Positions 4,844 to 57,516 of a stretch of DNA of 64,000 nucleotides are shown here, one piece after another. Origin of the DNA: Planctomycetota bacterium (GTDB lineage: Bacteria; Planctomycetota; Planctomycetia; Pirellulales; PNKZ01); NCBI GenBank assembly GCA_018242585.1, contig JAFEBQ010000012.1, forward strand, positions 148,563 to 212,562. The letters run 5' to 3'. Position numbers and translations under genes: made by a program. The first letter of the stretch is position 1; each line of letters opens with the position of its first letter. The notes beneath the pieces were generated by a model. The model saw only the letters and a list, made by a program, of their open reading frames with translations. It did not search any database and was not told where the DNA came from.

Positions 4844-6637
4844 CTATTCGTTCCCCTCGACTTCGGCTTGCAGTTCCAGCCAGCGTTCCTCGGCGGTCGA
4901 CAATTGCTGGCCGATGGCGGTCAGCTCTTGATGCAGCCGGAGCGCTTCGGCGGCGTCGGTCGAGTTCATCAGCCGGGCGTTGATGTCTTTCTTCTGCTCG
5001 TCCAGTTTGGCGATGTTCCGCTCGAGGTTCGTGATTTCCTTGCGCACGTCGCGCTCGCTGCGGCGCGGCTTGCCGGCCGGCTTGGCGGCGCTCTTCGGCG
5101 CGGTGGCTGGCTTGGACTTGGCTTTGGCGGCGGCTGCCTCGCGCTCGCCGGCTTCGATTTCCTGGTTGACCGAGTAGAGATACGCCTCGTAGTCGCCCCG
5201 GTAATTGGTCACATGGCCATCGCGGACTTCGACGATGCACGTGGCCACGCGCTTCATGAAGTGCCGATCGTGGCTCGTAAACACCACCGTCCCTTGGTAA
5301 TCGAGCAGGGCGTTGGCCAGCGCCTCGACCGTTTCGACGTCGAGATGGTTTCCTGGCTCGTCAAGGACCAGGACGTTGTAGCTGCCGAGTAGCAGGCCCG
5401 CGAGACATAGCCGAGCCCGCTCGCCACCCGAGAGGACCGAAATCGGCTTATTCACATGATCGCCGCGGAACAGCAGCGCCGCCGCCATGTTCAAGATCAC
5501 CTGGTCCTTGGTGCCCGAGGTGGCCATCCGTTCCAGGTAGCTGAGGACCGTGTGATTCTCGGGCAGACTGGTATACACGTGCTGGGCATAGACGCCGATC
5601 TGGCAGCCGTACCCCCAGCGAACTTCGCCGGCCAGCGGCGCCAGCGAGTCAACCACGGTACGCAGGAACGTCGTTTTCCCCTGGCCGTTGTCGCCCACCA
5701 CGGCGGCGCGCCAGCCGTGGTCGAGTTCCAGGTCGATGTCGCGGGCGACTTCCCGCTCGGCGTAACCAATCGCCACTCCGCGGCAGCGCAGGGCGGGGCC
5801 TTTGCGGGGTTCGACCTGCGGAGCGCGAATCACCGCCGTCGGGTCGTCGACTTCGACCTCAGCGAATTCAAGTTTCTCTAGCTCTTTGCTCTTCGAGCGG
5901 GCGCGGGCGGCGGTGCTGGCCCGGGCGCGATTGCGGGCGATGAAGTCTTCAAGATGCCGCTTCCGCGCCATGACCGACGCGTTGCTCCGCTCGTCGTGTT
6001 CGCGCTGGCCTTGGACATAGTCGATGAACGCACTCACCTTGCCGGGGAACATCGTCAACTTACCGCGGGCCAGCCCCAGCGTGTGGGTGCAGGTCGCTTC
6101 CAGGAAAGCGCGATCGTGCGAGACGATCAAACAGGCCTCCTGAAAGTGCCGCAGGAAGTGCTCGAGCAGAATCTGGGTGCGCAAGTCAAGAAAGTTGGTC
6201 GGCTCGTCCAACAGCAACAGGTTTGGATCGTGCAGCAGTAAGGCCGCCAGCTTGACGCGCGTTTGCCAGCCCCCCGAGAGTTTGGCGACCGGACCTTCGA
6301 GCAGCGAACCTTTCAACTCGAACTCGCCGGCCACCTCGCCACAGCGCCAGTCGGGCTGGCCGCTGTCGCGGATCAGGAAATCGAGCGCCGATTCACCGGG
6401 CAAGAACGGGTCGTGCTGTCGGAGGTAGCCCAGTCGCAGCTTGGGGTGGCGAATCACCTCGCCGGTGTCGAGTTCCTCTTCTCCCAGCAAAACGCGGAGC
6501 AGGGTGCTCTTGCCGGCGCCGTTGCGACCGACAAAGCCGACTTTCACGTCGTCGACGATCGTAGTTTCAGCGCCGTCGAGCAGCACTTGCTCGCCGTAGC
6601 TTTTGTGAGCGTCTTTGATTTGCAGCAGGACAGCCAT
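4844..6637 (-). CDS. ABC-F family ATPase (two ABC cassettes, no transmembrane domain, C-terminal coiled coil)
   Basis: Walker A motifs GRNGAGKS and GDNGQGKT. Signature motifs LSGGWQTR and LSGGERAR. The tail is K/E-rich. 597 aa. Confidence 0.9.
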   Translation of the reverse strand: MAVLLQIKDAHKSYGEQVLLDGAETTIVDDVKVGFVGRNGAGKSTLLRVLLGEEELDTGEVIRHPKLRLGYLRQHDPFLPGESALDFLIRDSGQPDWRCGEVAGEFELKGSLLEGPVAKLSGGWQTRVKLAALLLHDPNLLLLDEPTNFLDLRTQILLEHFLRHFQEACLIVSHDRAFLEATCTHTLGLARGKLTMFPGKVSAFIDYVQGQREHDERSNASVMARKRHLEDFIARNRARASTAARARSKSKELEKLEFAEVEVDDPTAVIRAPQVEPRKGPALRCRGVAIGYAEREVARDIDLELDHGWRAAVVGDNGQGKTTFLRTVVDSLAPLAGEVRWGYGCQIGVYAQHVYTSLPENHTVLSYLERMATSGTKDQVILNMAAALLFRGDHVNKPISVLSGGERARLCLAGLLLGSYNVLVLDEPGNHLDVETVEALANALLDYQGTVVFTSHDRHFMKRVATCIVEVRDGHVTNYRGDYEAYLYSVNQEIEAGEREAAAAKAKSKPATAPKSAAKPAGKPRRSERDVRKEITNLERNIAKLDEQKKDINARLMNSTDAAEALRLHQELTAIGQQLSTAEERWLELQAEVEGNE

Positions 6638-6766: not shown

Positions 6767-6817
6767 CCAAGCCGGCGGCTCTGCCGCCGATTTTCGGTGG
6801 CAAAGCCACCGGCTTGG
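6767..6817. repeat. 51-nt structured palindromic element, copy A (outer stem plus two internal hairpins)
   Basis: Sequence ccaagccggcggctctgccgccgattttcggtggcaaagccaccggcttgg, 43/51 identical to 15674-15724. Every stem difference is compensatory (see findings). Confidence 0.65.
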
Positions 6818-6856: not shown

Positions 6857-7738
6857 ATGGCGAGCACCACTTCACACAATGATGACACCACCATGACCGT
6901 TGACGTTCACTCCCACACGTGGCAGTACCCCCAGCACTTTACCGACGATTTTCGCCGGCAGGCTCAGCGTGCGCGCGCCGGTCGCGAAGTCGATCTGTCG
7001 GTGCGCTATGACGAATATCAAAAGACCGTGCCCCCCGGCACACGCACCGTGGTCTTCGGCGGCAAGGCCCGGCTGAGCGGCGTGTGGGTCGACGACGCCT
7101 ACGTGGCCAGCTACGTCGCGGCGCACCCCGACACGCTGACTGGCTTTCTCTCGGTCGATCCGACCCAATCGGGCTGGCAAGAGGAAATGTGGCACGGGCA
7201 CGAAACGCTCGGCCTGCGCGGCATCAAGCTGCTGCCGATGTACGCCGGGTTTCGCCCCGACGAAGCCCGGCTTGATCCGCTGTGGCAATACGCCACCGAG
7301 CATCGCTTGCCGGTGCTGCTGCACACCGGGACGACGTTCGTGGCGCAGGCCCCGCTCGAATGCACCCTGCCGCGCCACCTCGACGCGGTCGCCATCCGCT
7401 GGCCCGAGGTGCGGATCATCATGGCCCACCTGGGGCATCCGTACGAGGCCGAGTGCGTGGTGACGATTCGCAAGCACCCGAACGTCTATGCCGACATCAG
7501 CGCGCTTCACTATCGGCCGTTCCAGCTCTATCACAGCCTGATGCTGGTGCAAGAGTATGGCGTGTGGGACAAGCTGCTGTTCGGCAGCGACTATCCGTTC
7601 ACGACGGTCAACGCTTCGATCGACGGGCTGAGGGCGCTCAACCAGATGACCGTCGGCACCGGCCTGCCGCGATTGAACGAAGCGGCGATCGAAGCGCTAA
7701 TCAACCGCGACGCGCTCAAGATTCTGGGGATTGAGTAG
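6857..7738 (+). CDS. Amidohydrolase-2 family metal-dependent hydrolase (TIM barrel)
   Basis: N-terminal VDVHSHTW metal-binding motif, then HTGT, IIMAHLGHPY and LFGSDYPF blocks typical of the family. Confidence 0.8.
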   Translation: MASTTSHNDDTTMTVDVHSHTWQYPQHFTDDFRRQAQRARAGREVDLSVRYDEYQKTVPPGTRTVVFGGKARLSGVWVDDAYVASYVAAHPDTLTGFLSVDPTQSGWQEEMWHGHETLGLRGIKLLPMYAGFRPDEARLDPLWQYATEHRLPVLLHTGTTFVAQAPLECTLPRHLDAVAIRWPEVRIIMAHLGHPYEAECVVTIRKHPNVYADISALHYRPFQLYHSLMLVQEYGVWDKLLFGSDYPFTTVNASIDGLRALNQMTVGTGLPRLNEAAIEALINRDALKILGIE

Positions 7739-9619: not shown

Positions 9620-9924
9620 CTAGATTCCCGCCTGCGCGGGAATGACGGAACCTGGGCTAGTGCGCGTCTCACCACGTTATCGTGTCTGAGGTGGCACCGA
9701 TGGCTTGGCCATCGGTGTTGCGCAGCAACAAGAAACTCGATGGGCACGCGCAACCCAAATGGAAACTCGCCACCGGCTCGGGCCGGCGCTCGAGGTTTCT
9801 TGTGGCCTTCGGCCACCCAGGTGCAAGCACCTGGGCCACCCACGCAGGCCGTCATTCCCGCGCAGGCGGGAATCTAGTGGTTGCGGTTACCCTCTAGATT
9901 CCCGCCTGCGCGGGAATGACGGAA
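9620..9924. repeat. Three copies of a 29-nt palindromic REP-like unit ctagattcccgcctgcgcgggaatgacgg
   Basis: The 29-nt unit sits at 9620-9648 (plus orientation), 9849-9877 (inverted) and 9894-9922 (plus orientation). The plus-orientation copies continue with 'aa' (to 9650 and 9924). All three are identical over 29 nt and share the internal hairpin attcccgc/gcgggaat. Confidence 0.7.
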
Positions 9925-12919: not shown

Positions 12920-14302
12920 TCAGACGGCCCGCAATTGACGCGATGGCGACAGCTCGGGCGTTAATCGCTCGGGCAGCAGCTCGCGCCGCTCGATGTCGGA
13001 CAAATCTTCGTGATGGCGGATCAACTCGACATCGCCATTTTCCATGACCATCACCACGTTGGGGCGATACTCGATGAACTGCAACCACTGGGTGTTGTTG
13101 TAGGCGCCGACTGGCGAGAAGACGAGCCGGTGGCCGCGGTCCAGCGGGGGCAGGCTGATCCCTTCGTCGATGGCGTCGATGTTCATGCACATGGGGCCGT
13201 AGACGACGCTGGTTTCCTGGGGGCCGGAAACTTCGCGATCGACCTCGACGTGGAACTTGTACCAGAACGACGTGAAGAGCAGATTGATTCCGGCGTCGGC
13301 CACATAGGCGCGCGTGCCGTCGGCCAACCGCTTCGAGGCCTGGATCGTCGTGACCAGGTAGCCCGCCTCGTCGACCAGCGTGCGGCCGGCTTCGACGATC
13401 AACCGCGGTCGGTGCCCCGGAGCCAGCGAATTGGCCAGCGCGTCGCAGACCTGCTCGGCATAGTCGTCGATCGAGGGGACCGACACATCCGGAGCCAGGT
13501 ACGTCCCCTTCAGCTTGCTCCGCGAGGGGAAGCCGCCGCCGATGTCGAGATATTCAAGTTCGAAGCCGAACAGGTCACGTACCTCGTAACCAAAGCGGAC
13601 CATCTTCTCGACCTGGCGCGCGTAGGCCGTTTCGTCCATCACGAACGTGCCTAGATGACAGTGCAGGCCATTGAGCCGCAGGCGGCCGCTGCGCGCGATG
13701 CGCTTGACGGCATCCATCGCCTGGCCCGATTCCAGATTGAAGCCAAACCGGGACCATTGCGGATAGATGCCGACGTCCATGTTCAGCCGAATGCCCACCG
13801 AAATCGTCCGTCCCAGCCGCGTGGCAATGCGATCGAGATCGTCGATCTCGTCCAGGTGGTCGACGTTGATCGTGGCCCGTTCGGCCACGGCGCGCATTAA
13901 TACATCGGCCGGCTTGTAAGGGCCGTTGAAGATGATCTGCTCGCCTGGCACGCCGAGTGCCTTGGCCTTTTCGTACTCCATCTTCGAGACGATCTCGGCG
14001 TGGGCCCCTTCCTGGTGCATCAGGCCGCAGATCGCCTTAAGGTAGTTCGTCTTGTACGACCAGCCGAAGGTGACGTTCGGATAGCGGGTAGTGAAGGCGC
14101 TGTGCAATTGACGGTAGCGGCGGCGCAAGGCCCGTTCGCTGTAGACGAACAGCGGGGAGCCGTACTTTTCGACCAGCTCGGAGATCGCCACCCCTTCGAT
14201 CGCTTTGCGCACGCGCTGGTTGCTGCGGCGCTGGGTGCCGAACTTGTTCATCAGCCGGCTTTGCAGCTTCATGATGAACGGTTTTTCGTACGTGGCTTTC
14301 AT
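12920..14302 (-). CDS. PLP-dependent decarboxylase, alanine-racemase fold (diaminopimelate/ornithine/arginine decarboxylase family)
   Basis: Family motifs are SYKTNY (PLP-lysine region), HCHLG, DIGGGF, EAGRTLV and GPMCMNID. I moved the start to ATG 14302, so the protein begins MKATYEKPF. That start overlaps the upstream stop by 4 nt (ATGA). Confidence 0.85.
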   Translation of the reverse strand: MKATYEKPFIMKLQSRLMNKFGTQRRSNQRVRKAIEGVAISELVEKYGSPLFVYSERALRRRYRQLHSAFTTRYPNVTFGWSYKTNYLKAICGLMHQEGAHAEIVSKMEYEKAKALGVPGEQIIFNGPYKPADVLMRAVAERATINVDHLDEIDDLDRIATRLGRTISVGIRLNMDVGIYPQWSRFGFNLESGQAMDAVKRIARSGRLRLNGLHCHLGTFVMDETAYARQVEKMVRFGYEVRDLFGFELEYLDIGGGFPSRSKLKGTYLAPDVSVPSIDDYAEQVCDALANSLAPGHRPRLIVEAGRTLVDEAGYLVTTIQASKRLADGTRAYVADAGINLLFTSFWYKFHVEVDREVSGPQETSVVYGPMCMNIDAIDEGISLPPLDRGHRLVFSPVGAYNNTQWLQFIEYRPNVVMVMENGDVELIRHHEDLSDIERRELLPERLTPELSPSRQLRAV

Positions 14303-15345
14303 AGGGAACCTCCGCGCATCATCAGGCTTTGCAACCGCTGCATATCGGTGACCATTTCGTAGGTGTAACGCATGAACAACTGGCCCGCTTCGTAGTCGGG
14401 CAACTCGGCCACGGGCATGCCGCTGGCGTGGCGGATCATCCGACCGGGCAAGTTGATCCCCACGCCGGTGGCAAAGTACGACCAGGCCGGAAAGCGAGGA
14501 TTGATTTCGATCAGGTACAACTCGTCGTCCGACGGATCGAGCATACATTCCAGCTCGAACGGCCCGCGCCAATTCAGCGCCGCGACCAACCGTTCGGCGG
14601 CTTGCTGCAGCGCGGCATTCTTCAAGGTGACCGCCGACCAGACTTTGCCTAGCGACGTGAGCGAAACCTTTTTCATCGCCACCGAGCCGAGCAGACCGCC
14701 GCGTCCGTCGCCGACGCCGACCAGGTTCACCTCTTCGCCGGTGATCACCTGTTGCACAATGACCGGGTAGCCCCACTCGGCGGCGATAGCGCGGAACTTG
14801 GCCACGGCCTCGAGCGCGGTGTACGCCCGGAACGCCTGGTAATAGGCCCCTTTGACCATCACCGGATAGCCGATCTTTTCGCAGGCCTCGTACAACATCT
14901 CTTCGCTCGACACGACAGCCGTCTTGGGAACGGCCATATCAATGCGGGCGGCGATCTCGGGCAACTTGTCCTTGCCGCGCAGACGGAACTGCGACATGGT
15001 CGGCAAGAAGGTTTGAATGCCGTTCCGCGCCAGCTCGTCGGCGTACTTGATGTAAAGGGGCAGTTCCACGTCGAGATTTGGAATCACCCAGTCGAGCCCT
15101 TCGCCGGCTTGGATTTCGAGCAACCGATCGAGGAACTCGCGTCCCTCGGTCGAAGGGTAGGGAAGCGTGAACGAGCGGTCGAACAGCCAGTCCATGTAAA
15201 TGCCGGGCTCGAGCGCGTCGTACGCCAGCCCGATCAGCTCGACGTTCAGCTCGCGATCTTCTTTCAGGCTGCGGGCGATGCCGGTCCCTGGCCCCGGGTT
15301 GTCGGCGGCGTTGATGCCCGAGACGCCGATTCGCAACGTGCGCAT
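14299..15345 (-). CDS. ATP-grasp family ligase (substrates unknown)
   Basis: 348 aa. ATP-grasp core blocks are GYPVMVKG, GYPVIVQQVITGEE and LYLIEINPRFPAW (Mg/ATP site). Confidence 0.8.
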   Translation of the reverse strand: MRTLRIGVSGINAADNPGPGTGIARSLKEDRELNVELIGLAYDALEPGIYMDWLFDRSFTLPYPSTEGREFLDRLLEIQAGEGLDWVIPNLDVELPLYIKYADELARNGIQTFLPTMSQFRLRGKDKLPEIAARIDMAVPKTAVVSSEEMLYEACEKIGYPVMVKGAYYQAFRAYTALEAVAKFRAIAAEWGYPVIVQQVITGEEVNLVGVGDGRGGLLGSVAMKKVSLTSLGKVWSAVTLKNAALQQAAERLVAALNWRGPFELECMLDPSDDELYLIEINPRFPAWSYFATGVGINLPGRMIRHASGMPVAELPDYEAGQLFMRYTYEMVTDMQRLQSLMMRGGSL

Positions 15346-15371
15346 GATGCGGACCTTTACAACGGGTGTGT

Positions 15372-15617
15372 TTACAGCAGGTGGAGCGAACGGAGCCGGA
15401 CCATCAGGTCGGCGACGTCGCGGGTGGCTTCGGTCTCGGAAACTTCAAACCGGGTGGTCAGCGCGGCCACGGCGTCGGCTTCGTCGCCGCCGTCGCGCAG
15501 CGATTCGAGGACCGCGACCGCCACCGGGTTGGCGACAAAGCTGTCCCCCGAAGTCGGGTCAAACAGGAACCCATCGGGGTTGATCGTCAGATGCGAAAGT
15601 CGCGTCGGGTTGCTCAT
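15372..15617 (-). CDS. PqqD-family (RiPP-recognition-element-like) small protein
   Basis: 81 aa. The pattern FLFDPTSGDSFVANPVAVAVLESLRDGGDEADAVAALTTRFEVSETEATRDVADLMVRLRSLHLL matches the PqqD beta-strand plus winged-helix layout. AGGAA lies about 9 nt upstream of the ATG. Confidence 0.75.
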   Translation of the reverse strand: MSNPTRLSHLTINPDGFLFDPTSGDSFVANPVAVAVLESLRDGGDEADAVAALTTRFEVSETEATRDVADLMVRLRSLHLL

Positions 15618-15673: not shown

Positions 15674-15724
15674 CCAAGCCGGCGACTCCGTCGCCACTTT
15701 TCGGCGGCATAGCCGCCGGCTTGG
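15674..15724. repeat. 51-nt structured palindromic element, copy B, in the leader/divergent promoter region of the PqqD operon
   Basis: Sequence ccaagccggcgactccgtcgccacttttcggcggcatagccgccggcttgg. It has the same architecture as 6767-6817 and lies 57 nt upstream of the PqqD-like start. Confidence 0.65.
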
Positions 15725-15981
15725 AAGAAAAGTTGGGGATGAACCCGGCGCAACCCCTCAGGGTGGGAAACGGGGGTGGCCGCCGGTTGTCTACTGGCGG
15801 GGCAGACTTTTCCGGCCAGGATGGCGGAACTTAAAGAATTGGGGTCATTCGTCCGGTTTTGGTCGGTCGCCCGAGGTCCGTTGGGCGGACTCTTGACCGG
15901 CCCCCAGTGGTGTGGTCAGATTCTCGCTCCGCACACGTTTTCCTGCCCCACATCGCCCGTCTTACATAGGTTCAACTGCTG

Positions 15982-17472
15982 ATGGCCACCGCGATCGAAC
16001 GTCCCTGGTACAAAGAACTTACCGGCTATCACTGGTTCGTGTTCGTGGTGGCCGCCCTGGGTTGGCTATTCGACTGCTTGGATCAGCAGTTGTTTGTCCT
16101 GGCACGACCGGCCGCCATGGCGGAGTTGGTCACGGGGATCGACGATCCGAAGTTACTGGAAATAGCGCGACGCGACGCGGGCAACTGGGCGACAAGTCTG
16201 TTTTTGATTGGCTGGGCGTCGGGTGGATTGTTCTTTGGCGTGCTCGGCGACCGGATCGGCCGCGCCAAGACCATGATGTGGACCATCATCCTATATTCAC
16301 TTTTTACCGGGTTGAACTCGTTTGCCACCGGGCCTTGGACGTTTTCCCTCTTTCGTTTTCTGACCGGACTCGGCGTCGGTGGTGAGTTTGCCGTCGGTGT
16401 CGCGCTGATTGCCGAAGTCATGCCGGCGCGCGCGCGACCCTATACGCTGGGATTATTGCAAGCGCTTTCCGCGCTCGGAAATGTGAGCGCGGCACTGATC
16501 AATATGGGGCTCGGCGTGGCCGAAGAAGAAGGTTTGGTGACCAGCCCGTGGCGGATCATGTTTCTGGTCGGCGCGGTCCCGGCGTTGTTGGCCTTGGTCA
16601 TTCGCAGTAAGCTGAAAGAACCCGAGCAATGGCAGAAGGCTTCGCATGACCAGGCGGTTGCCAAGCAGCTTGGTTCGTACTCCGAACTGTTTACCAACCC
16701 ACGCTGGCGCAAAAACGCGATCATTGGATTGTTGCTGGCGTGTTCCGGGGTCATCGGCTTGTGGGCGGTCGGCTTCTTTGCGCCCGACCTGACGCGGTAT
16801 GTCCAGCGCAAACGCGTCGCCACCGAAGTCTATACCGAACTGGCCGCCAAGGCCGACGCTGGCGACAAGAAGGACGTCGCCGCGAAGTATCGGCAATTGA
16901 TCGATCTGGAGCGGGCGGCGGCCACGTCGGGATACCAGGTGCCCGAGGAGTTAAAAGCGGCTCGGAACGACGCGGAGCCAATCGTGCAAGGACGCCTTTC
17001 GCGCTGGGCTAGCTACACCTCGATCATGATCAATATCGGCGCCTTTTGTGGGATGTTCGGGTTTACGGCCTTGTCCCAAAAGATCGGCCGCAAGCCGACG
17101 TTCGCGCTGGCGTTGGTGGCGGCGTTTGTCAGCACCGCTTCGGTGTTCTGGTTCCTCAGCGAGTTTTGGCAGATCTTTGTGCTGGTGCCGATCATGGGCT
17201 TTTGCCAGTTGTCGTTGTTCGGCGGTTACGCGGTCTATTTTCCGGAATTGTTCCCGACGCGACTGCGCAGCACCGGCACGTCGTTCTGCTACAACGTCGG
17301 TCGCTTTGTGGCCGCCGGTGGGCCGTTGGTTAAATCGCAGTTGGAAAGCGCCTTTCGCGACACGCCCGAGCCGCTCCGGTATGCCGGCGTGGCGATGTGC
17401 GCCGTATTCCTGATCGGCTTGTTCGTCCTGCCATTCGCTCCGGAAACGAAGGGACAACCGCTGCCGGAGTAA
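15982..17472 (+). CDS. MFS transporter
   Basis: 496 aa and polytopic, with the MFS loop motif GVLGDRIGRAKTM and a central hydrophilic loop. Transcribed divergently from the PqqD operon. Confidence 0.85.
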   Translation: MATAIERPWYKELTGYHWFVFVVAALGWLFDCLDQQLFVLARPAAMAELVTGIDDPKLLEIARRDAGNWATSLFLIGWASGGLFFGVLGDRIGRAKTMMWTIILYSLFTGLNSFATGPWTFSLFRFLTGLGVGGEFAVGVALIAEVMPARARPYTLGLLQALSALGNVSAALINMGLGVAEEEGLVTSPWRIMFLVGAVPALLALVIRSKLKEPEQWQKASHDQAVAKQLGSYSELFTNPRWRKNAIIGLLLACSGVIGLWAVGFFAPDLTRYVQRKRVATEVYTELAAKADAGDKKDVAAKYRQLIDLERAAATSGYQVPEELKAARNDAEPIVQGRLSRWASYTSIMINIGAFCGMFGFTALSQKIGRKPTFALALVAAFVSTASVFWFLSEFWQIFVLVPIMGFCQLSLFGGYAVYFPELFPTRLRSTGTSFCYNVGRFVAAGGPLVKSQLESAFRDTPEPLRYAGVAMCAVFLIGLFVLPFAPETKGQPLPE

Positions 17473-47636: not shown

Positions 47637-47710
47637 GCGCGCGTAGCTCAGTTGGTTAGAGCGCAGCCCTGATAAGGCTGAGGTCCCAAGTTCGAGTCTT
47701 GGCGCGCGCA
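47637..47710 (+). tRNA. tRNA-Ile (anticodon GAU)
   Basis: Hand-folded cloverleaf: acceptor GCGCGCG/CGCGCGC, D-arm gctc-agttggtta-gagc, anticodon stem cagcc/ggctg with loop ctGATaa, T-arm ccaag-ttcgagt-cttgg, discriminator A. CCA is not encoded. Confidence 0.9.
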
Positions 47711-47843: not shown

Positions 47844-47916
<73 letters not shown>

Positions 47917-47921
47917 CTGGC

Positions 47922-47998
47922 TTGTCAGTTGTCCGTGGTCAGTTGCACTCCAATGGAACGCCTTTCGCAACTGACAACTGGCCACGGACAACTGACAA
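47922..47998. repeat. Long hairpin of the TTGTCAGTTGTCCGTGG repeat family directly after tRNA-Ala
   Basis: The left arm is 47922-47946 and the right arm 47967-47998. Pairing is 17 bp plus 8 bp perfect, with a 7-nt bulge and a 20-nt loop. No U-run follows. Confidence 0.65.
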
Positions 47999-57041: not shown

Positions 57042-57126
57042 GTCCGTTGTCAGTTGTCCGTGGTCCGTTGTTGGGATGGAAGAGTTCACGCTCGGTGGCA
57101 ACGGACCACTGACAACGGACATTTTT
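57042..57126 (+). terminator. Intrinsic terminator of the DUF1501 gene, built from the GTCCGTTGTCAG repeat family
   Basis: Arms 57042-57070 and 57099-57120 pair over 12 bp plus 10 bp with a 7-nt bulge. ATTTTT follows at 57121-57126. Confidence 0.65.
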
Positions 57127-57444: not shown

Positions 57445-57516
57445 GGCTCCGTAGCCAAGTGGCTAAGGCAGCGGATTGCAAATCCGCCATCGTGAGTTCG
57501 ACTCTCACCGGAGCCT
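57445..57516 (+). tRNA. tRNA-Cys (anticodon GCA)
   Basis: Hand-folded: acceptor GGCTCCG/CGGAGCC, anticodon stem gcgga/tccgc with loop ttGCAaa, T-arm gtgag-ttcgact-ctcac, discriminator U. Confidence 0.9.

What the first reader, a model, noticed from the sequence alone, without database searches (positions are those of the whole stretch)
6767..6817. 51-nt three-way-junction element present twice, with every stem difference compensatory
Copy A (6767-6817) is CCAAGCCGGCGGCTCTGCCGCCGATTTTCGGTGGCAAAGCCACCGGCTTGG. Copy B (15674-15724) is CCAAGCCGGCGACTCCGTCGCCACTTTTCGGCGGCATAGCCGCCGGCTTGG. They are 43/51 identical.

Both copies fold the same way:
- an outer 6-bp stem (positions 1-6 with 46-51);
- hairpin 1 (8-13 with 17-22);
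- hairpin 2 (29-35 with 39-45).

The 8 differences fall as follows:
- Two compensatory pairs: 12:18 is G:C in A and A:T in B, and 32:42 is T:A in A and C:G in B.
- Two loop positions (16 and 37).
- Two positions in the unpaired linker (23 and 24).
No difference breaks a base pair.

Both copies sit in divergent promoter regions. Copy A lies between the ABC-F and amidohydrolase genes, and copy B between the PqqD operon and the MFS gene. The element could be a structured RNA leader, a cruciform operator or a REP-like element. I do not recognise it as a known riboswitch.
Basis: seen in the sequence. Interest (0 to 1): 0.6.

Follow-up and report, generated by a model that had tools for sequence, protein, structure and literature searches.

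The report
Planctomycete REP-like hairpin-doublet repeat
The two 51-base elements are copies of a short palindromic repeat scattered between genes, made of two inverted "tag plus hairpin" units like those that flank a hairpin-recognising transposase gene in related bacteria; they are not a gene-specific RNA switch.

Summary
Both copies are real: same coordinates, 43/51 identical, and no difference breaks a pair of the proposed fold. The predicted minimum-energy fold of every copy, on both strands, is one long imperfect hairpin. The three-way junction is 4-17 kcal/mol weaker (RNA parameters).

Comparative data still favour the two local hairpins:
- Six further copies occur in two other planctomycete MAGs.
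- All 152 pair cells of the two-hairpin fold are paired, with compensatory changes.
- The long-hairpin pairing scores no better than shuffles.

Each half of the element is a 7-nt tag, CCAAGCC, followed by a 6-7-bp stem with a 3-nt loop. The element is two such units, inverted.

The copies lie between convergent, co-directional and divergent genes. A syntenic close relative lacks the element at both window sites.

In seven loci from other Planctomycetes, units of this type flank both sides of a small gene. Its product has conserved HUH and Tyr residues. Its best structural match is the E. coli REP-associated tyrosine transposase.

Best reading: a REP/REPIN-like doublet, a new member of a known kind. 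It is not a riboswitch or operator. Mobilisation, and a cognate transposase in this genome, are inferred, not shown.

The parts
6767..6817 (.). Copy A, the whole 51-nt doublet: tag, hairpin, spacer, hairpin, inverted tag
   Evidence: The covariance model scores it 75.0 bits on + and 72.4 bits on -.
6767..6773 (+). Copy A, left tag CCAAGCC. C at 6773 can also close hairpin 1.
   Evidence: The tag is invariant in all 33 distinct units. It recurs beside the Y1-transposase-like genes found through protein homology.
6774..6788 (+). Copy A, hairpin 1: GGCGGC TCT GCCGCC. It extends to 7 bp with C6773:G6789.
   Evidence: pair counts. HP1 with closing pair (6773-6789) plus the ATTTTC after it was also the only terminator-like hit in the region, and only a weak one.
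6790..6794 (+). Copy A, spacer ATTTT
   Evidence: The spacer varies in sequence and length among copies.
6795..6811 (+). Copy A, hairpin 2: C GGTGGC AAA GCCACC G. It is the inverted second unit, and its stem differs from hairpin 1 at one base pair.
6811..6817 (-). Copy A, right tag: GGCTTGG on +, which reads CCAAGCC on -
15674..15724 (.). Copy B, the whole 51-nt doublet. Units are CCAAGCC GGCGAC TCC GTCGCC on + and CCAAGCC GGCGGC TAT GCCGCC on -, with linker/spacer ACTTTT (positions 23-28, 15696-15701); A15696 takes the place of the G that closes hairpin 1 in the other copies.

Best explanation
The element is a compact REP doublet, of the REPIN or BIME kind.

Anatomy:
- It consists of two inverted copies of a 23-nt unit.
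- Each unit is the tag CCAAGCC followed by a GC-rich hairpin with a 6-7-bp stem and a 3-nt loop.
- The units are placed with the tags outward and are separated by 5-6 nt.
- The 'outer stem' exists because the two tags are inverted copies of each other.
- The long hairpin exists because the two unit hairpins are nearly the same sequence.

Inferred mechanism, by analogy with REP/RAYT and IS200/IS605 systems:
- On single-stranded DNA each unit folds on its own.
- A Y1 HUH transposase of a planctomycete-specific, RAYT-like family recognises the hairpin together with the tag.
- That enzyme copies or moves the doublet into intergenic DNA.
- Once inserted, the element is mostly a passenger. Where it is transcribed at gene ends, its stable hairpins may protect or end transcripts.
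- Nothing indicates that the two window copies regulate the flanking divergent genes.

Shown: the family, the hairpin covariation, the scattered extragenic distribution, the absence at orthologous sites, the association of the tag-plus-hairpin unit with Y1-transposase-like genes elsewhere, and the fold of that protein.

Inferred: mobilisation itself, and the presence of a cognate transposase in this genome.
For: 1. The family exists.
- Six more full copies (51-52 nt) and one decayed copy occur in two other planctomycete MAGs, CAYLYE01 and CAZZBK01, at loci not syntenic with the window.

2. The local hairpins are what is kept.
- For the two-hairpin fold, 152/152 pair cells are paired and 3 pairs change on both sides. 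The covariation score is above all 500 shuffles.
- For the long hairpin, 90.8% of cells are paired, no better than shuffles. Pair 12:41 is broken in 6 of 8 copies.
- In every copy the two hairpin stems differ from each other.

3. At an orthologous site the stems are frozen.
- L021 and L034 are orthologous loci; the flanking esterase is 92% identical in protein.
- The element is 48/52 identical, and all 4 changes are in loops or linker.
- The adjacent spacers have diverged strongly.

4. The positions are those of a dispersed extragenic repeat.
- Convergent gene ends: L057, L021/L034.
- Co-directional genes, 12-24 nt after a stop codon: L089, L113.
- Upstream of a gene: L094, L119.
- Divergent genes: the two window copies.

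5. The closest relative lacks it.
- L136 is syntenic across both intergenic regions, with an amidohydrolase 86% identical in protein.
- It lacks the element at both sites.

6. Units of this type flank a Y1-transposase-like gene.
- L075, in a Gemmataceae MAG, carries a 172-aa gene flanked on both sides by doublets with the same 7+15+8+15+7 layout and the same CCAAGCCGG arms.
- Six further homologue loci were found by protein similarity alone: L142, L143, L144, L145/L146, L147 and L148.
- All are flanked on both sides by hairpin repeats that start with CCAAGCC. L147 has the variant CTAAGCC.

7. The unit hairpin covaries.
- Across 33 distinct units, 5 of 7 stem pairs change on both sides.
- 34 cells change on both sides, against 10.2 +/- 2.3 in shuffles.
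- The covariation score is 0.418 against 0.157.

8. The flanked protein looks like a RAYT.
- H100 and Y158 are invariant and H102 nearly so (HUH and catalytic Tyr positions).
- 15 of 40 members hit Pfam Y1_Tnp.
- There is a weak NCBIfam hit to REP-associated tyrosine transposase.
- The AlphaFold model has pLDDT 87. Its best PDB match is 4ER8, the E. coli REP-associated tyrosine transposase bound to a REP hairpin. IS608, ISDra2 and IS200 TnpA follow.

9. The genome holds other REP-type repeats.
- The window contains three CGTC-tagged REP units.
Against: - No Y1-transposase-like gene lies in the window or in the MAG loci that carry this exact family. The rest of those genomes could not be read, so the link to the transposase rests on the shared tag and hairpin geometry.
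- Copy number per genome is unknown.
- All copies outside the window were retrieved with a pattern that fixes positions 1-9 and 43-51. Conservation of the tag within this family is therefore partly by construction.
- No precise empty site or target sequence could be defined, because the flanks in the relative have diverged too far.
- The tag is neither GTAG nor CGTC.
- The Foldseek TM-scores are modest, at 0.51-0.53.
- Conservation of the stems at the orthologous L021/L034 site could reflect a host function rather than transposase recognition.
- Two divergent-promoter positions out of two in the window is unusual for classical REPs.
Confidence: 0.75

Rival explanations
1. The element is a host-retained hairpin, whatever its origin. 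It would act as a bidirectional transcription terminator, a 3'-end mRNA stabiliser, or an insulator between neighbouring transcription units. On this view host selection maintains it and it is no longer mobile.
For: - Three loci have the element filling an 81-90-nt gap between convergent stop codons.
- Stems are frozen at the orthologous L021/L034 site while the flanks diverge.
- Relatives carry unrelated GC-rich hairpins at equivalent positions: L136 at intergenic region B and L137 after the esterase gene.
- The hairpins are very stable, with folding z-scores of -6 to -9.
Against: - No T-tract follows the element on either strand. Only 3-4 T lie inside the spacer.
- Near-identical sequence at unrelated loci and in different genomes is not expected of ordinary terminators.
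- The two window copies lie between divergent gene starts, where a terminator has no obvious role.
- This reading is compatible with, not exclusive of, a REP origin.
Confidence: 0.12
2. The element is a strand-specific structured RNA. It would be a three-way-junction leader or small RNA that regulates the flanking genes, possibly a new riboswitch-like motif.
For: - The two hairpins show compensatory changes.
- Both window copies are upstream of genes.
- No Rfam family matches, so if real it would be new.
Against: - The three-way junction is 4-17 kcal/mol less stable than the long hairpin in all 8 copies.
- Loops and linker are not conserved. The linker is T-rich in some copies and A-rich in others relative to the hairpin order, so there is no consistent strand.
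- The covariance model scores both strands almost equally.
- Other copies sit after stop codons or between convergent genes.
- The syntenic relative has the same genes without the element.
- The flanking genes share no function.
Confidence: 0.04
3. The element is a double-stranded DNA operator or cruciform site. A dimeric regulator or nucleoid protein would bind the 15-bp palindromes GGCGRC-N3-GYCGCC.
For: - Each hairpin is a perfect 15-bp palindrome, a typical shape for a homodimer binding site.
- Two copies lie in divergent promoter regions.
Against: - Stem sequences change freely while pairing is kept. Across units the same positions read GCGA/TCGC, GTGG/CCAC, CCGC/GCGG, ATGG/CCGT and ACCG/CGGT. 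That pattern indicates base pairing, not sequence read-out.
- Copies lie at gene ends and between convergent genes.
- The element is absent at the same promoters in the relative.
Confidence: 0.05
4. The element is a miniature inverted-repeat element (MITE). A DDE transposase would move it by acting on its 13-nt terminal inverted repeats.
For: - The termini CCAAGCCGGCGRC and GYCGCCGGCTTGG are inverted repeats.
- The distribution is dispersed, and presence differs between relatives.
Against: - No target-site duplication appears in any of the 9 copies.
- At 51 nt the element is far shorter than usual MITEs.
- The same tag and hairpin flank Y1 HUH transposase-like genes, not DDE genes, in seven loci.
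Confidence: 0.04

Closest known systems
REP / BIME / REPIN elements with their RAYT (TnpA_REP) transposases, as in E. coli and Pseudomonas (PMC3116915, PMC3337134, PMC3733652; PDB 4ER8)
   Same: - A short extragenic palindromic unit with a conserved tag 5' of a hairpin that covaries.
- Units paired in inverted orientation, so that together they can form a longer hairpin.
- The two partners of a pair differ in their stems ('heterodimers', PMC3733652).
- Units of this type flank a small Y1 HUH gene whose model best matches 4ER8.
- Presence at a given site differs between relatives.
   Different: - The tag is CCAAGCC, not GTAG or CGTC.
- The unit is small, with a 6-7-bp perfect stem and a 3-nt loop.
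- The doublet is only 51-52 nt with a 5-6-nt spacer. From my own knowledge, Pseudomonas REPINs are roughly 90-110 nt.
- The associated protein is so divergent that Pfam Y1_Tnp misses 25 of 40 members.
- No cognate gene has been seen in this genome.
Class 3 TnpA_Y1 'REPtron-like' systems of Planctomycetes, Acidobacteria and Proteobacteria (Quentin et al. 2018, PMC6006769)
   Same: - Found mainly in Planctomycetes.
- Proteins of about 178 aa with HVH and W[TA] motifs.
- Genes flanked by several secondary structures that can reach high copy number.
- The listed structures begin CCGAGCCG, CAGAGCCG or ACGAGCCGG. These are one base away from CCAAGCCG.
   Different: - The published foot is CnGA; here the equivalent bases are CCAA.
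- The published hairpins are 7-9 bp with internal mismatches and 4-nt loops. Here the stems are perfect with 3-nt loops.
- The published Tyr motif is YV[VI][AENY]EQ. This family has YVRxH, with an invariant His at Y+4.
- I could not test membership directly, because no class 3 sequence was available to compare.
IS200/IS605 transposon ends (IS608, ISDra2)
   Same: - Subterminal hairpins with an adjacent short recognition or cleavage sequence, acted on as single-stranded DNA.
- Their TnpA structures are the next-best structural matches after 4ER8.
   Different: - Here the hairpin units are dispersed on their own.
- They flank the gene as inverted doublets on both sides, rather than forming distinct left and right ends.
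Rho-independent (intrinsic) bidirectional terminators
   Same: - A stable GC-rich hairpin.
- Several copies sit just after stop codons or between convergent genes.
   Different: - No flanking U-tract.
- Near-identical sequence at unrelated loci and in different genomes.
- Also found between divergent gene starts.

Membership tests
REP/REPIN-RAYT system | Short palindromic unit: a hairpin kept by covariation next to a conserved, unpaired sequence tag | tested here: met
   - 33 distinct units all carry CCAAGCC followed by a 7-bp stem and a 3-nt loop.
- 89% of pair cells are paired and 5 of 7 pairs change on both sides.
- The covariation score is 0.418 against 0.157 in shuffles.
- Caveat: the units were chosen by the presence of the tag.
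REP/REPIN-RAYT system | Units occur as inverted doublets that can form a larger hairpin | tested here: met
   All 8 full copies are tags-outward doublets. Their minimum-energy fold is one long hairpin.
REP/REPIN-RAYT system | Multi-copy, dispersed and extragenic, with presence varying between related genomes | tested here: met
   - There are 9 copies at 8 non-homologous intergenic sites in 3 genomes.
- The element is absent at both orthologous sites in L136.
- Copy number per genome was not measurable.
REP/REPIN-RAYT system | The same repeats flank a Y1 HUH transposase (RAYT) gene in the same genome | not testable with these tools
   - This is met in other Planctomycetes for units with the same tag and geometry: 7 loci.
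- No such gene lies in the window or in the loci held from the MAGs that carry this family.
REP/REPIN-RAYT system | The associated protein has the HUH and catalytic Tyr motifs and the RAYT/IS200 fold | tested here: met
   - H100 and Y158 are invariant and H102 nearly so.
- 15 of 40 members hit PF01797.
- The top Foldseek hit is 4ER8_A, with E = 1.4e-4 and TM 0.51-0.53.
- The NCBIfam hit to REP_Tyr_transpos scores only 18 bits against a cutoff of 80.
REP/REPIN-RAYT system | GTAG or CGTC terminal tag (the super-families of PMC3733652) | tested here: not met
   The tag is CCAAGCC. GTAG occurs only by chance next to copy A.
REP/REPIN-RAYT system | Mobilisation by the transposase | not testable with these tools
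   This needs biochemistry or population sequencing.
Class 3 TnpA_Y1 REPtron (PMC6006769) | 5' foot CnGA, hairpins with internal mismatches, and protein motifs NHVH / W[TA] / YV[VI][AENY]EQ | tested here: inconclusive
   - The tag CCAAGCCG is one base from the listed CCGAGCCG.
- The HVH and WA motifs are present, but the Tyr motif is YVRxH.
- The hairpin shape differs.
Riboswitch or cis-regulatory leader RNA | Conserved unpaired nucleotides, fixed strand, and a conserved position in the 5' UTR of functionally related genes | tested here: not met
   - Loops and linker vary and the strand is not consistent.
- Positions include gene 3' ends.
- The element is absent from the orthologous leaders.
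- There is no Rfam match.
Intrinsic terminator | GC-rich hairpin directly followed by a U-tract, downstream of a gene | tested here: not met
   - No T-run follows the element.
- The only terminator-like call is hairpin 1 plus the 4-T spacer of copy A.
- The two window copies are not downstream of any gene.

The most novel reading that the evidence does not exclude
The compact 51-52-nt doublet may be more than a passenger. On this reading it has been taken over by the host as a nested-hairpin (three-way-junction or cruciform) element with a function of its own. That function could be a bidirectional transcript-end or insulator module. Selection would keep the two hairpin stems different, so that the two-hairpin fold stays available and a perfect long palindrome is avoided. 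The frozen stems at the orthologous L021/L034 site, and the unrelated hairpins at equivalent positions in relatives, fit this reading.
Probability: 0.15. Interest if true: 0.5.

Novelty: new member of a known kind. Interest (0 to 1): 0.3.

Why it matters
- **A candidate is removed.** The element looked like a possible new structured regulatory RNA. It is instead a dispersed palindromic repeat of the REP kind.
- **Modest positive value.** The work defines a CCAAGCC-tagged REP family and its compact doublet form in Planctomycetes. It links that unit type to a divergent RAYT-like protein family that standard Pfam annotation mostly misses. That family is close to, or part of, the little-studied class 3 TnpA_Y1 group.
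- **A caution for motif discovery.** Nested palindromes give convincing 'compensatory' patterns and alternative three-way folds. High-GC genomes that are rich in such repeats can therefore mislead RNA-motif searches.

Tried and rejected
- **Rfam.** The gathering search on the whole window and the E-value searches on both intergenic regions gave only tRNAs and noise-level microRNA hits.
- **More copies in the window.** blastn-short, a covariance model of the family and a tag-plus-hairpin scan found none beyond the two doublets.
- **Viral contigs.** Two scans gave only chance hits or none.
- **JGI metagenome scan with a family-specific pattern.** It returned four unrelated or loosely similar hairpins, so the family is essentially absent there.
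- **Exact look-up of the window's amidohydrolase.** It was not on record, so the source contig beyond the window could not be read.
- **More distant relatives.** L137-L141 hold no family copy and are not syntenic.
- **A precise empty site.** It could not be defined, because the flanks in L136 are too diverged.
- **Extra CCAAGCCGGC 10-mers in the window** (5076, 15103, 22138). They lie in coding sequence and have no hairpin.
- **Profile search of the transposase-like family against PDB sequences.** It found nothing. Only the fold comparison showed the relationship.
- **Cluster look-up.** It gave no assembly accessions that could tie a transposase homologue to the MAGs carrying the family.
- **Literature.** Searches for the motif and for RAYT with Planctomycetes found no description of this family.

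Full report
**Observation**

They are 43/51 identical. The eight differences are two compensated pairs (12:18 and 32:42), two loop positions and two linker positions.

Chance does not explain this:
- The pattern gave no match in 100 shuffles.
- With eight random substitutions, the chance of breaking none of the 19 proposed pairs is about 0.001.
- blastn-short, a covariance model and a tag-plus-hairpin scan find no further copy in the 64 kb.

The gene context is as described:
- Copy A lies between ABC-F (4844-6637, -) and an Amidohydro_2 gene. The database entry for that gene starts at 6893.
- Copy B lies between an 81-aa PqqD-like ORF (15372-15617, -) and an MFS transporter gene (15982-17472, +).

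**Fold**

The three-way junction is not the predicted structure.
- For both window copies, on both strands, with RNA and with DNA parameters, the minimum-energy structure is one long imperfect hairpin in which position i pairs with 52-i.
- For all eight full family copies, the long hairpin scores -34.7 to -47.4 kcal/mol as RNA. The junction scores -26.9 to -30.9.
- Both folds exist because hairpin 1 and hairpin 2 have nearly the same stem. The 5' arm of one can therefore pair with the 3' arm of the other.

**Family**

A genome-collection scan with only the outer 9+9 nt fixed returned mostly chance hits. It also returned six full copies and one decayed copy from two planctomycete MAGs:
- CAYLYE01: L021, L057, L089, L094.
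- CAZZBK01: L034, L113, and the decayed copy in L119.

These loci share no synteny with the window. The family is essentially absent from the JGI metagenome collection and from viral contigs. No Rfam family matches.

**Which pairing is conserved**

On the 8-copy alignment:
- The two-hairpin fold has 152/152 pair cells paired and three pairs with changes on both sides. Its covariation score is above all 500 shuffles.
- The long-hairpin pairing is 90.8% paired and no better than shuffles. Pair 12:41 is broken in 6 of 8 copies.
- In every copy the two hairpins differ by at least one base pair: GGCGAC/GTCGCC with GGCGGC/GCCGCC, GGCGGC/GCCGCC with GGTGGC/GCCACC, or GGCGGC/GCCGCC with GGTGAC/GTCGCC.
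- The loops and the linker vary. The linker is 7 or 8 nt. It is T-rich in some copies and A-rich in others relative to the order of the hairpin types, so the element has no consistent strand.
- The covariance model scores both strands almost equally.

Caveat: positions 1-9 and 43-51 were fixed by the search pattern.

**Selection**

L021 and L034 are orthologous loci; the flanking esterase is 92% identical in protein. There the element is 48/52 identical, and all four changes fall in loops or linker. The 23-nt spacer beside it is largely unalignable. So the stems are constrained, or homogenised, relative to neutral intergenic DNA.

**Position**

The flanking genes were checked with Pfam.
- L057: between convergent PNP_UDP_1 and phosphoglucomutase genes.
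- L021 and L034: between convergent esterase and 3-keto-disaccharide hydrolase genes. The element fills an intergenic gap of 84-90 nt.
- L089: 24 nt after a stop codon and 175 nt before the next co-directional gene.
- L113: 12 nt after the PhoU stop codon and directly upstream of DHDPS.
- L094 and L119: upstream of a gene.
- The window: two divergent intergenic regions.

There is no bias towards 5' regions and no common gene function.

**Orthologous sites in the closest relative**

L136 is a Logan contig whose amidohydrolase is 86% identical in protein. It is syntenic over at least ten genes and contains both intergenic regions. The model finds no copy there.
- Its ABC-F/amidohydrolase intergenic region is 119 nt, against 255 nt in the window.
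- At the PqqD/MFS intergenic region it has an unrelated GC-rich hairpin where the window has copy B.
- Sequence further downstream in that region is conserved.

The element is therefore not a conserved regulatory part of these genes.

**Link to a transposase**

One scan hit, L075 from a Gemmataceae MAG, had the same arms (CCAAGCCGG...CCGGCTTGG) and the same 7+15+8+15+7 layout, but different hairpin stems (GGTCGC GTG GCGACC).
- Reading the locus showed such doublets on both sides of a 172-aa ORF.
- Its 126 homologues come from Planctomycetes wherever the source is named, and two are named 'Transposase IS200 like'.
- Six further homologue loci were fetched by protein identity alone: L142, L143, L144, L145/L146, L147 and L148.
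- All are flanked on both sides by hairpin repeats that begin with CCAAGCC. L147 has the variant CTAAGCC.
- Most units have the same geometry as the window units. Examples are CCAAGCC GGCCGC TTG GCGGCC, CCAAGCC GACCGC TTG GCGGTC and CCAAGCC GATGGC TTC GCCGTC.

Across 33 distinct units the stem shows strong covariation:
- 5 of 7 pairs change on both sides.
- 34 cells change on both sides, against 10.2 +/- 2.3 in shuffles.
- The covariation score is 0.418 against 0.157.

In the loci examined (L146 was not included), only about 1 in 12 of the CCAAGCC occurrences outside the elements is followed by such a hairpin.

The protein family looks like a RAYT:
- H100 and Y158 are invariant, as is H162, and H102 is nearly so.
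- 15 of 40 members hit Pfam Y1_Tnp.
- There is a weak NCBIfam hit to REP-associated tyrosine transposase.
- The AlphaFold model has pLDDT 87. Its best PDB match is 4ER8, the E. coli REP-associated tyrosine transposase bound to a REP hairpin. IS608, ISDra2 and IS200 TnpA follow.

**Interpretation**

The 51-nt element is two inverted REP-type units, each a tag plus a hairpin. That makes it a compact REPIN/BIME-like doublet. This reading accounts for:
- the locally compensated hairpins;
- the invariant 'outer stem', which is two inverted tags;
- the lack of polarity;
- the extragenic scatter and the presence/absence difference between relatives;
- the fact that the two partners always differ. The same preference for 'heterodimers' has been noted for REP dimers, with the suggestion that perfect long palindromes are unstable (PMC3733652).

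Still inferred: mobilisation by the transposase-like protein, and the existence of a cognate gene in this genome. tblastn found none in the window or in the held MAG loci, and the full genomes could not be read.

**Comparison with known systems**

The closest described system is class 3 TnpA_Y1 of Quentin et al. 2018 (PMC6006769).
- Similar: the listed structures start CCGAGCCG, CAGAGCCG or ACGAGCCGG, one base from CCAAGCCG.
- Different: the hairpin shape, and the Tyr motif (YVRxH here, YV[VI][AENY]EQ there).

Membership is therefore open. The GTAG and CGTC tags of the classical REP super-families are absent.

**Verdict**

The 'three-way junction' is an alternative fold of a nested palindrome. 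The element is a new member of a known kind, a REP doublet, and not a new regulatory RNA. Interest is modest.

Noticed in passing
window 9624-9647 (-), 9850-9873 (+), 9898-9921 (-); palindrome 9849-9922: Three copies of a different repeat unit, CGTC ATTCCCGC GCAG GCGGGAAT. Two of them form a 74-nt head-to-head doublet. The unit fits the published CGTC-tagged REP type: CGTC tag, 8-bp stem starting with AT, and a 4-nt loop (PMC3733652). The chance expectation is 0.02 matches.
   Followed up: partly
window 47922-47998 and 57048-57121: Two copies of a third palindromic repeat of about 75 nt (TTGTCAGTTGTCCGTGGTCAGTTG ... CAACTGGCCACGGACAACTGACAA). The first lies 6 nt downstream of a tRNA gene; the second lies about 320 nt upstream of another. 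The tRNAs are at 47637-47710, 47844-47916 and 57445-57516.
   Followed up: no
window about 15750-15980, compared with L136 16610-16855: The part of the PqqD/MFS intergenic region downstream of copy B is conserved with the relative, for example GGTTGTCTAC and GGTGTGGTCAGATTCTCGCT. It could be a promoter or leader of the MFS gene. Rfam gives no match.
   Followed up: partly
L136 about 16547-16574: The close relative has an unrelated GC-rich hairpin, AGCCCCCGGC tgttccgg GCCGGGGGCT, at the position where the window has copy B.
   Followed up: no
L137 1752-1813: A more distant relative has yet another nested palindrome between its convergent esterase and TPR genes. Its outer arms are GTGGCTAGGGGCT / AGCCCCTAGCCAC and its inner hairpin is GTGAATC..GATTCAC.
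   Followed up: no
L142 and L148 (both from GCA_975303595.1): One MAG carries two different RAYT-like genes, P0245 and P0255. Each is flanked by its own CCAAGCC-tagged repeat type: CCCGGCCCCC-type for one and GACCGC TTG GCGGTC-type for the other.
   Followed up: partly
window 12920-15617 (-) and L136 11574-16504: A conserved gene cluster runs PqqD-like (81 aa), ATP-grasp, then PLP-dependent decarboxylase. In the relative it continues with a urea-transporter/M23-peptidase fusion. It looks like a small-peptide or small-metabolite modification cluster.
   Followed up: no
window, both strands: CCAAGCCGGC with up to one mismatch occurs 39 times, against 12.3 +/- 3.8 in dinucleotide shuffles. The three exact matches outside the elements, the only ones inspected, lie in coding sequence without hairpins. 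The excess is probably a codon-usage effect rather than decayed repeat units.
   Followed up: partly
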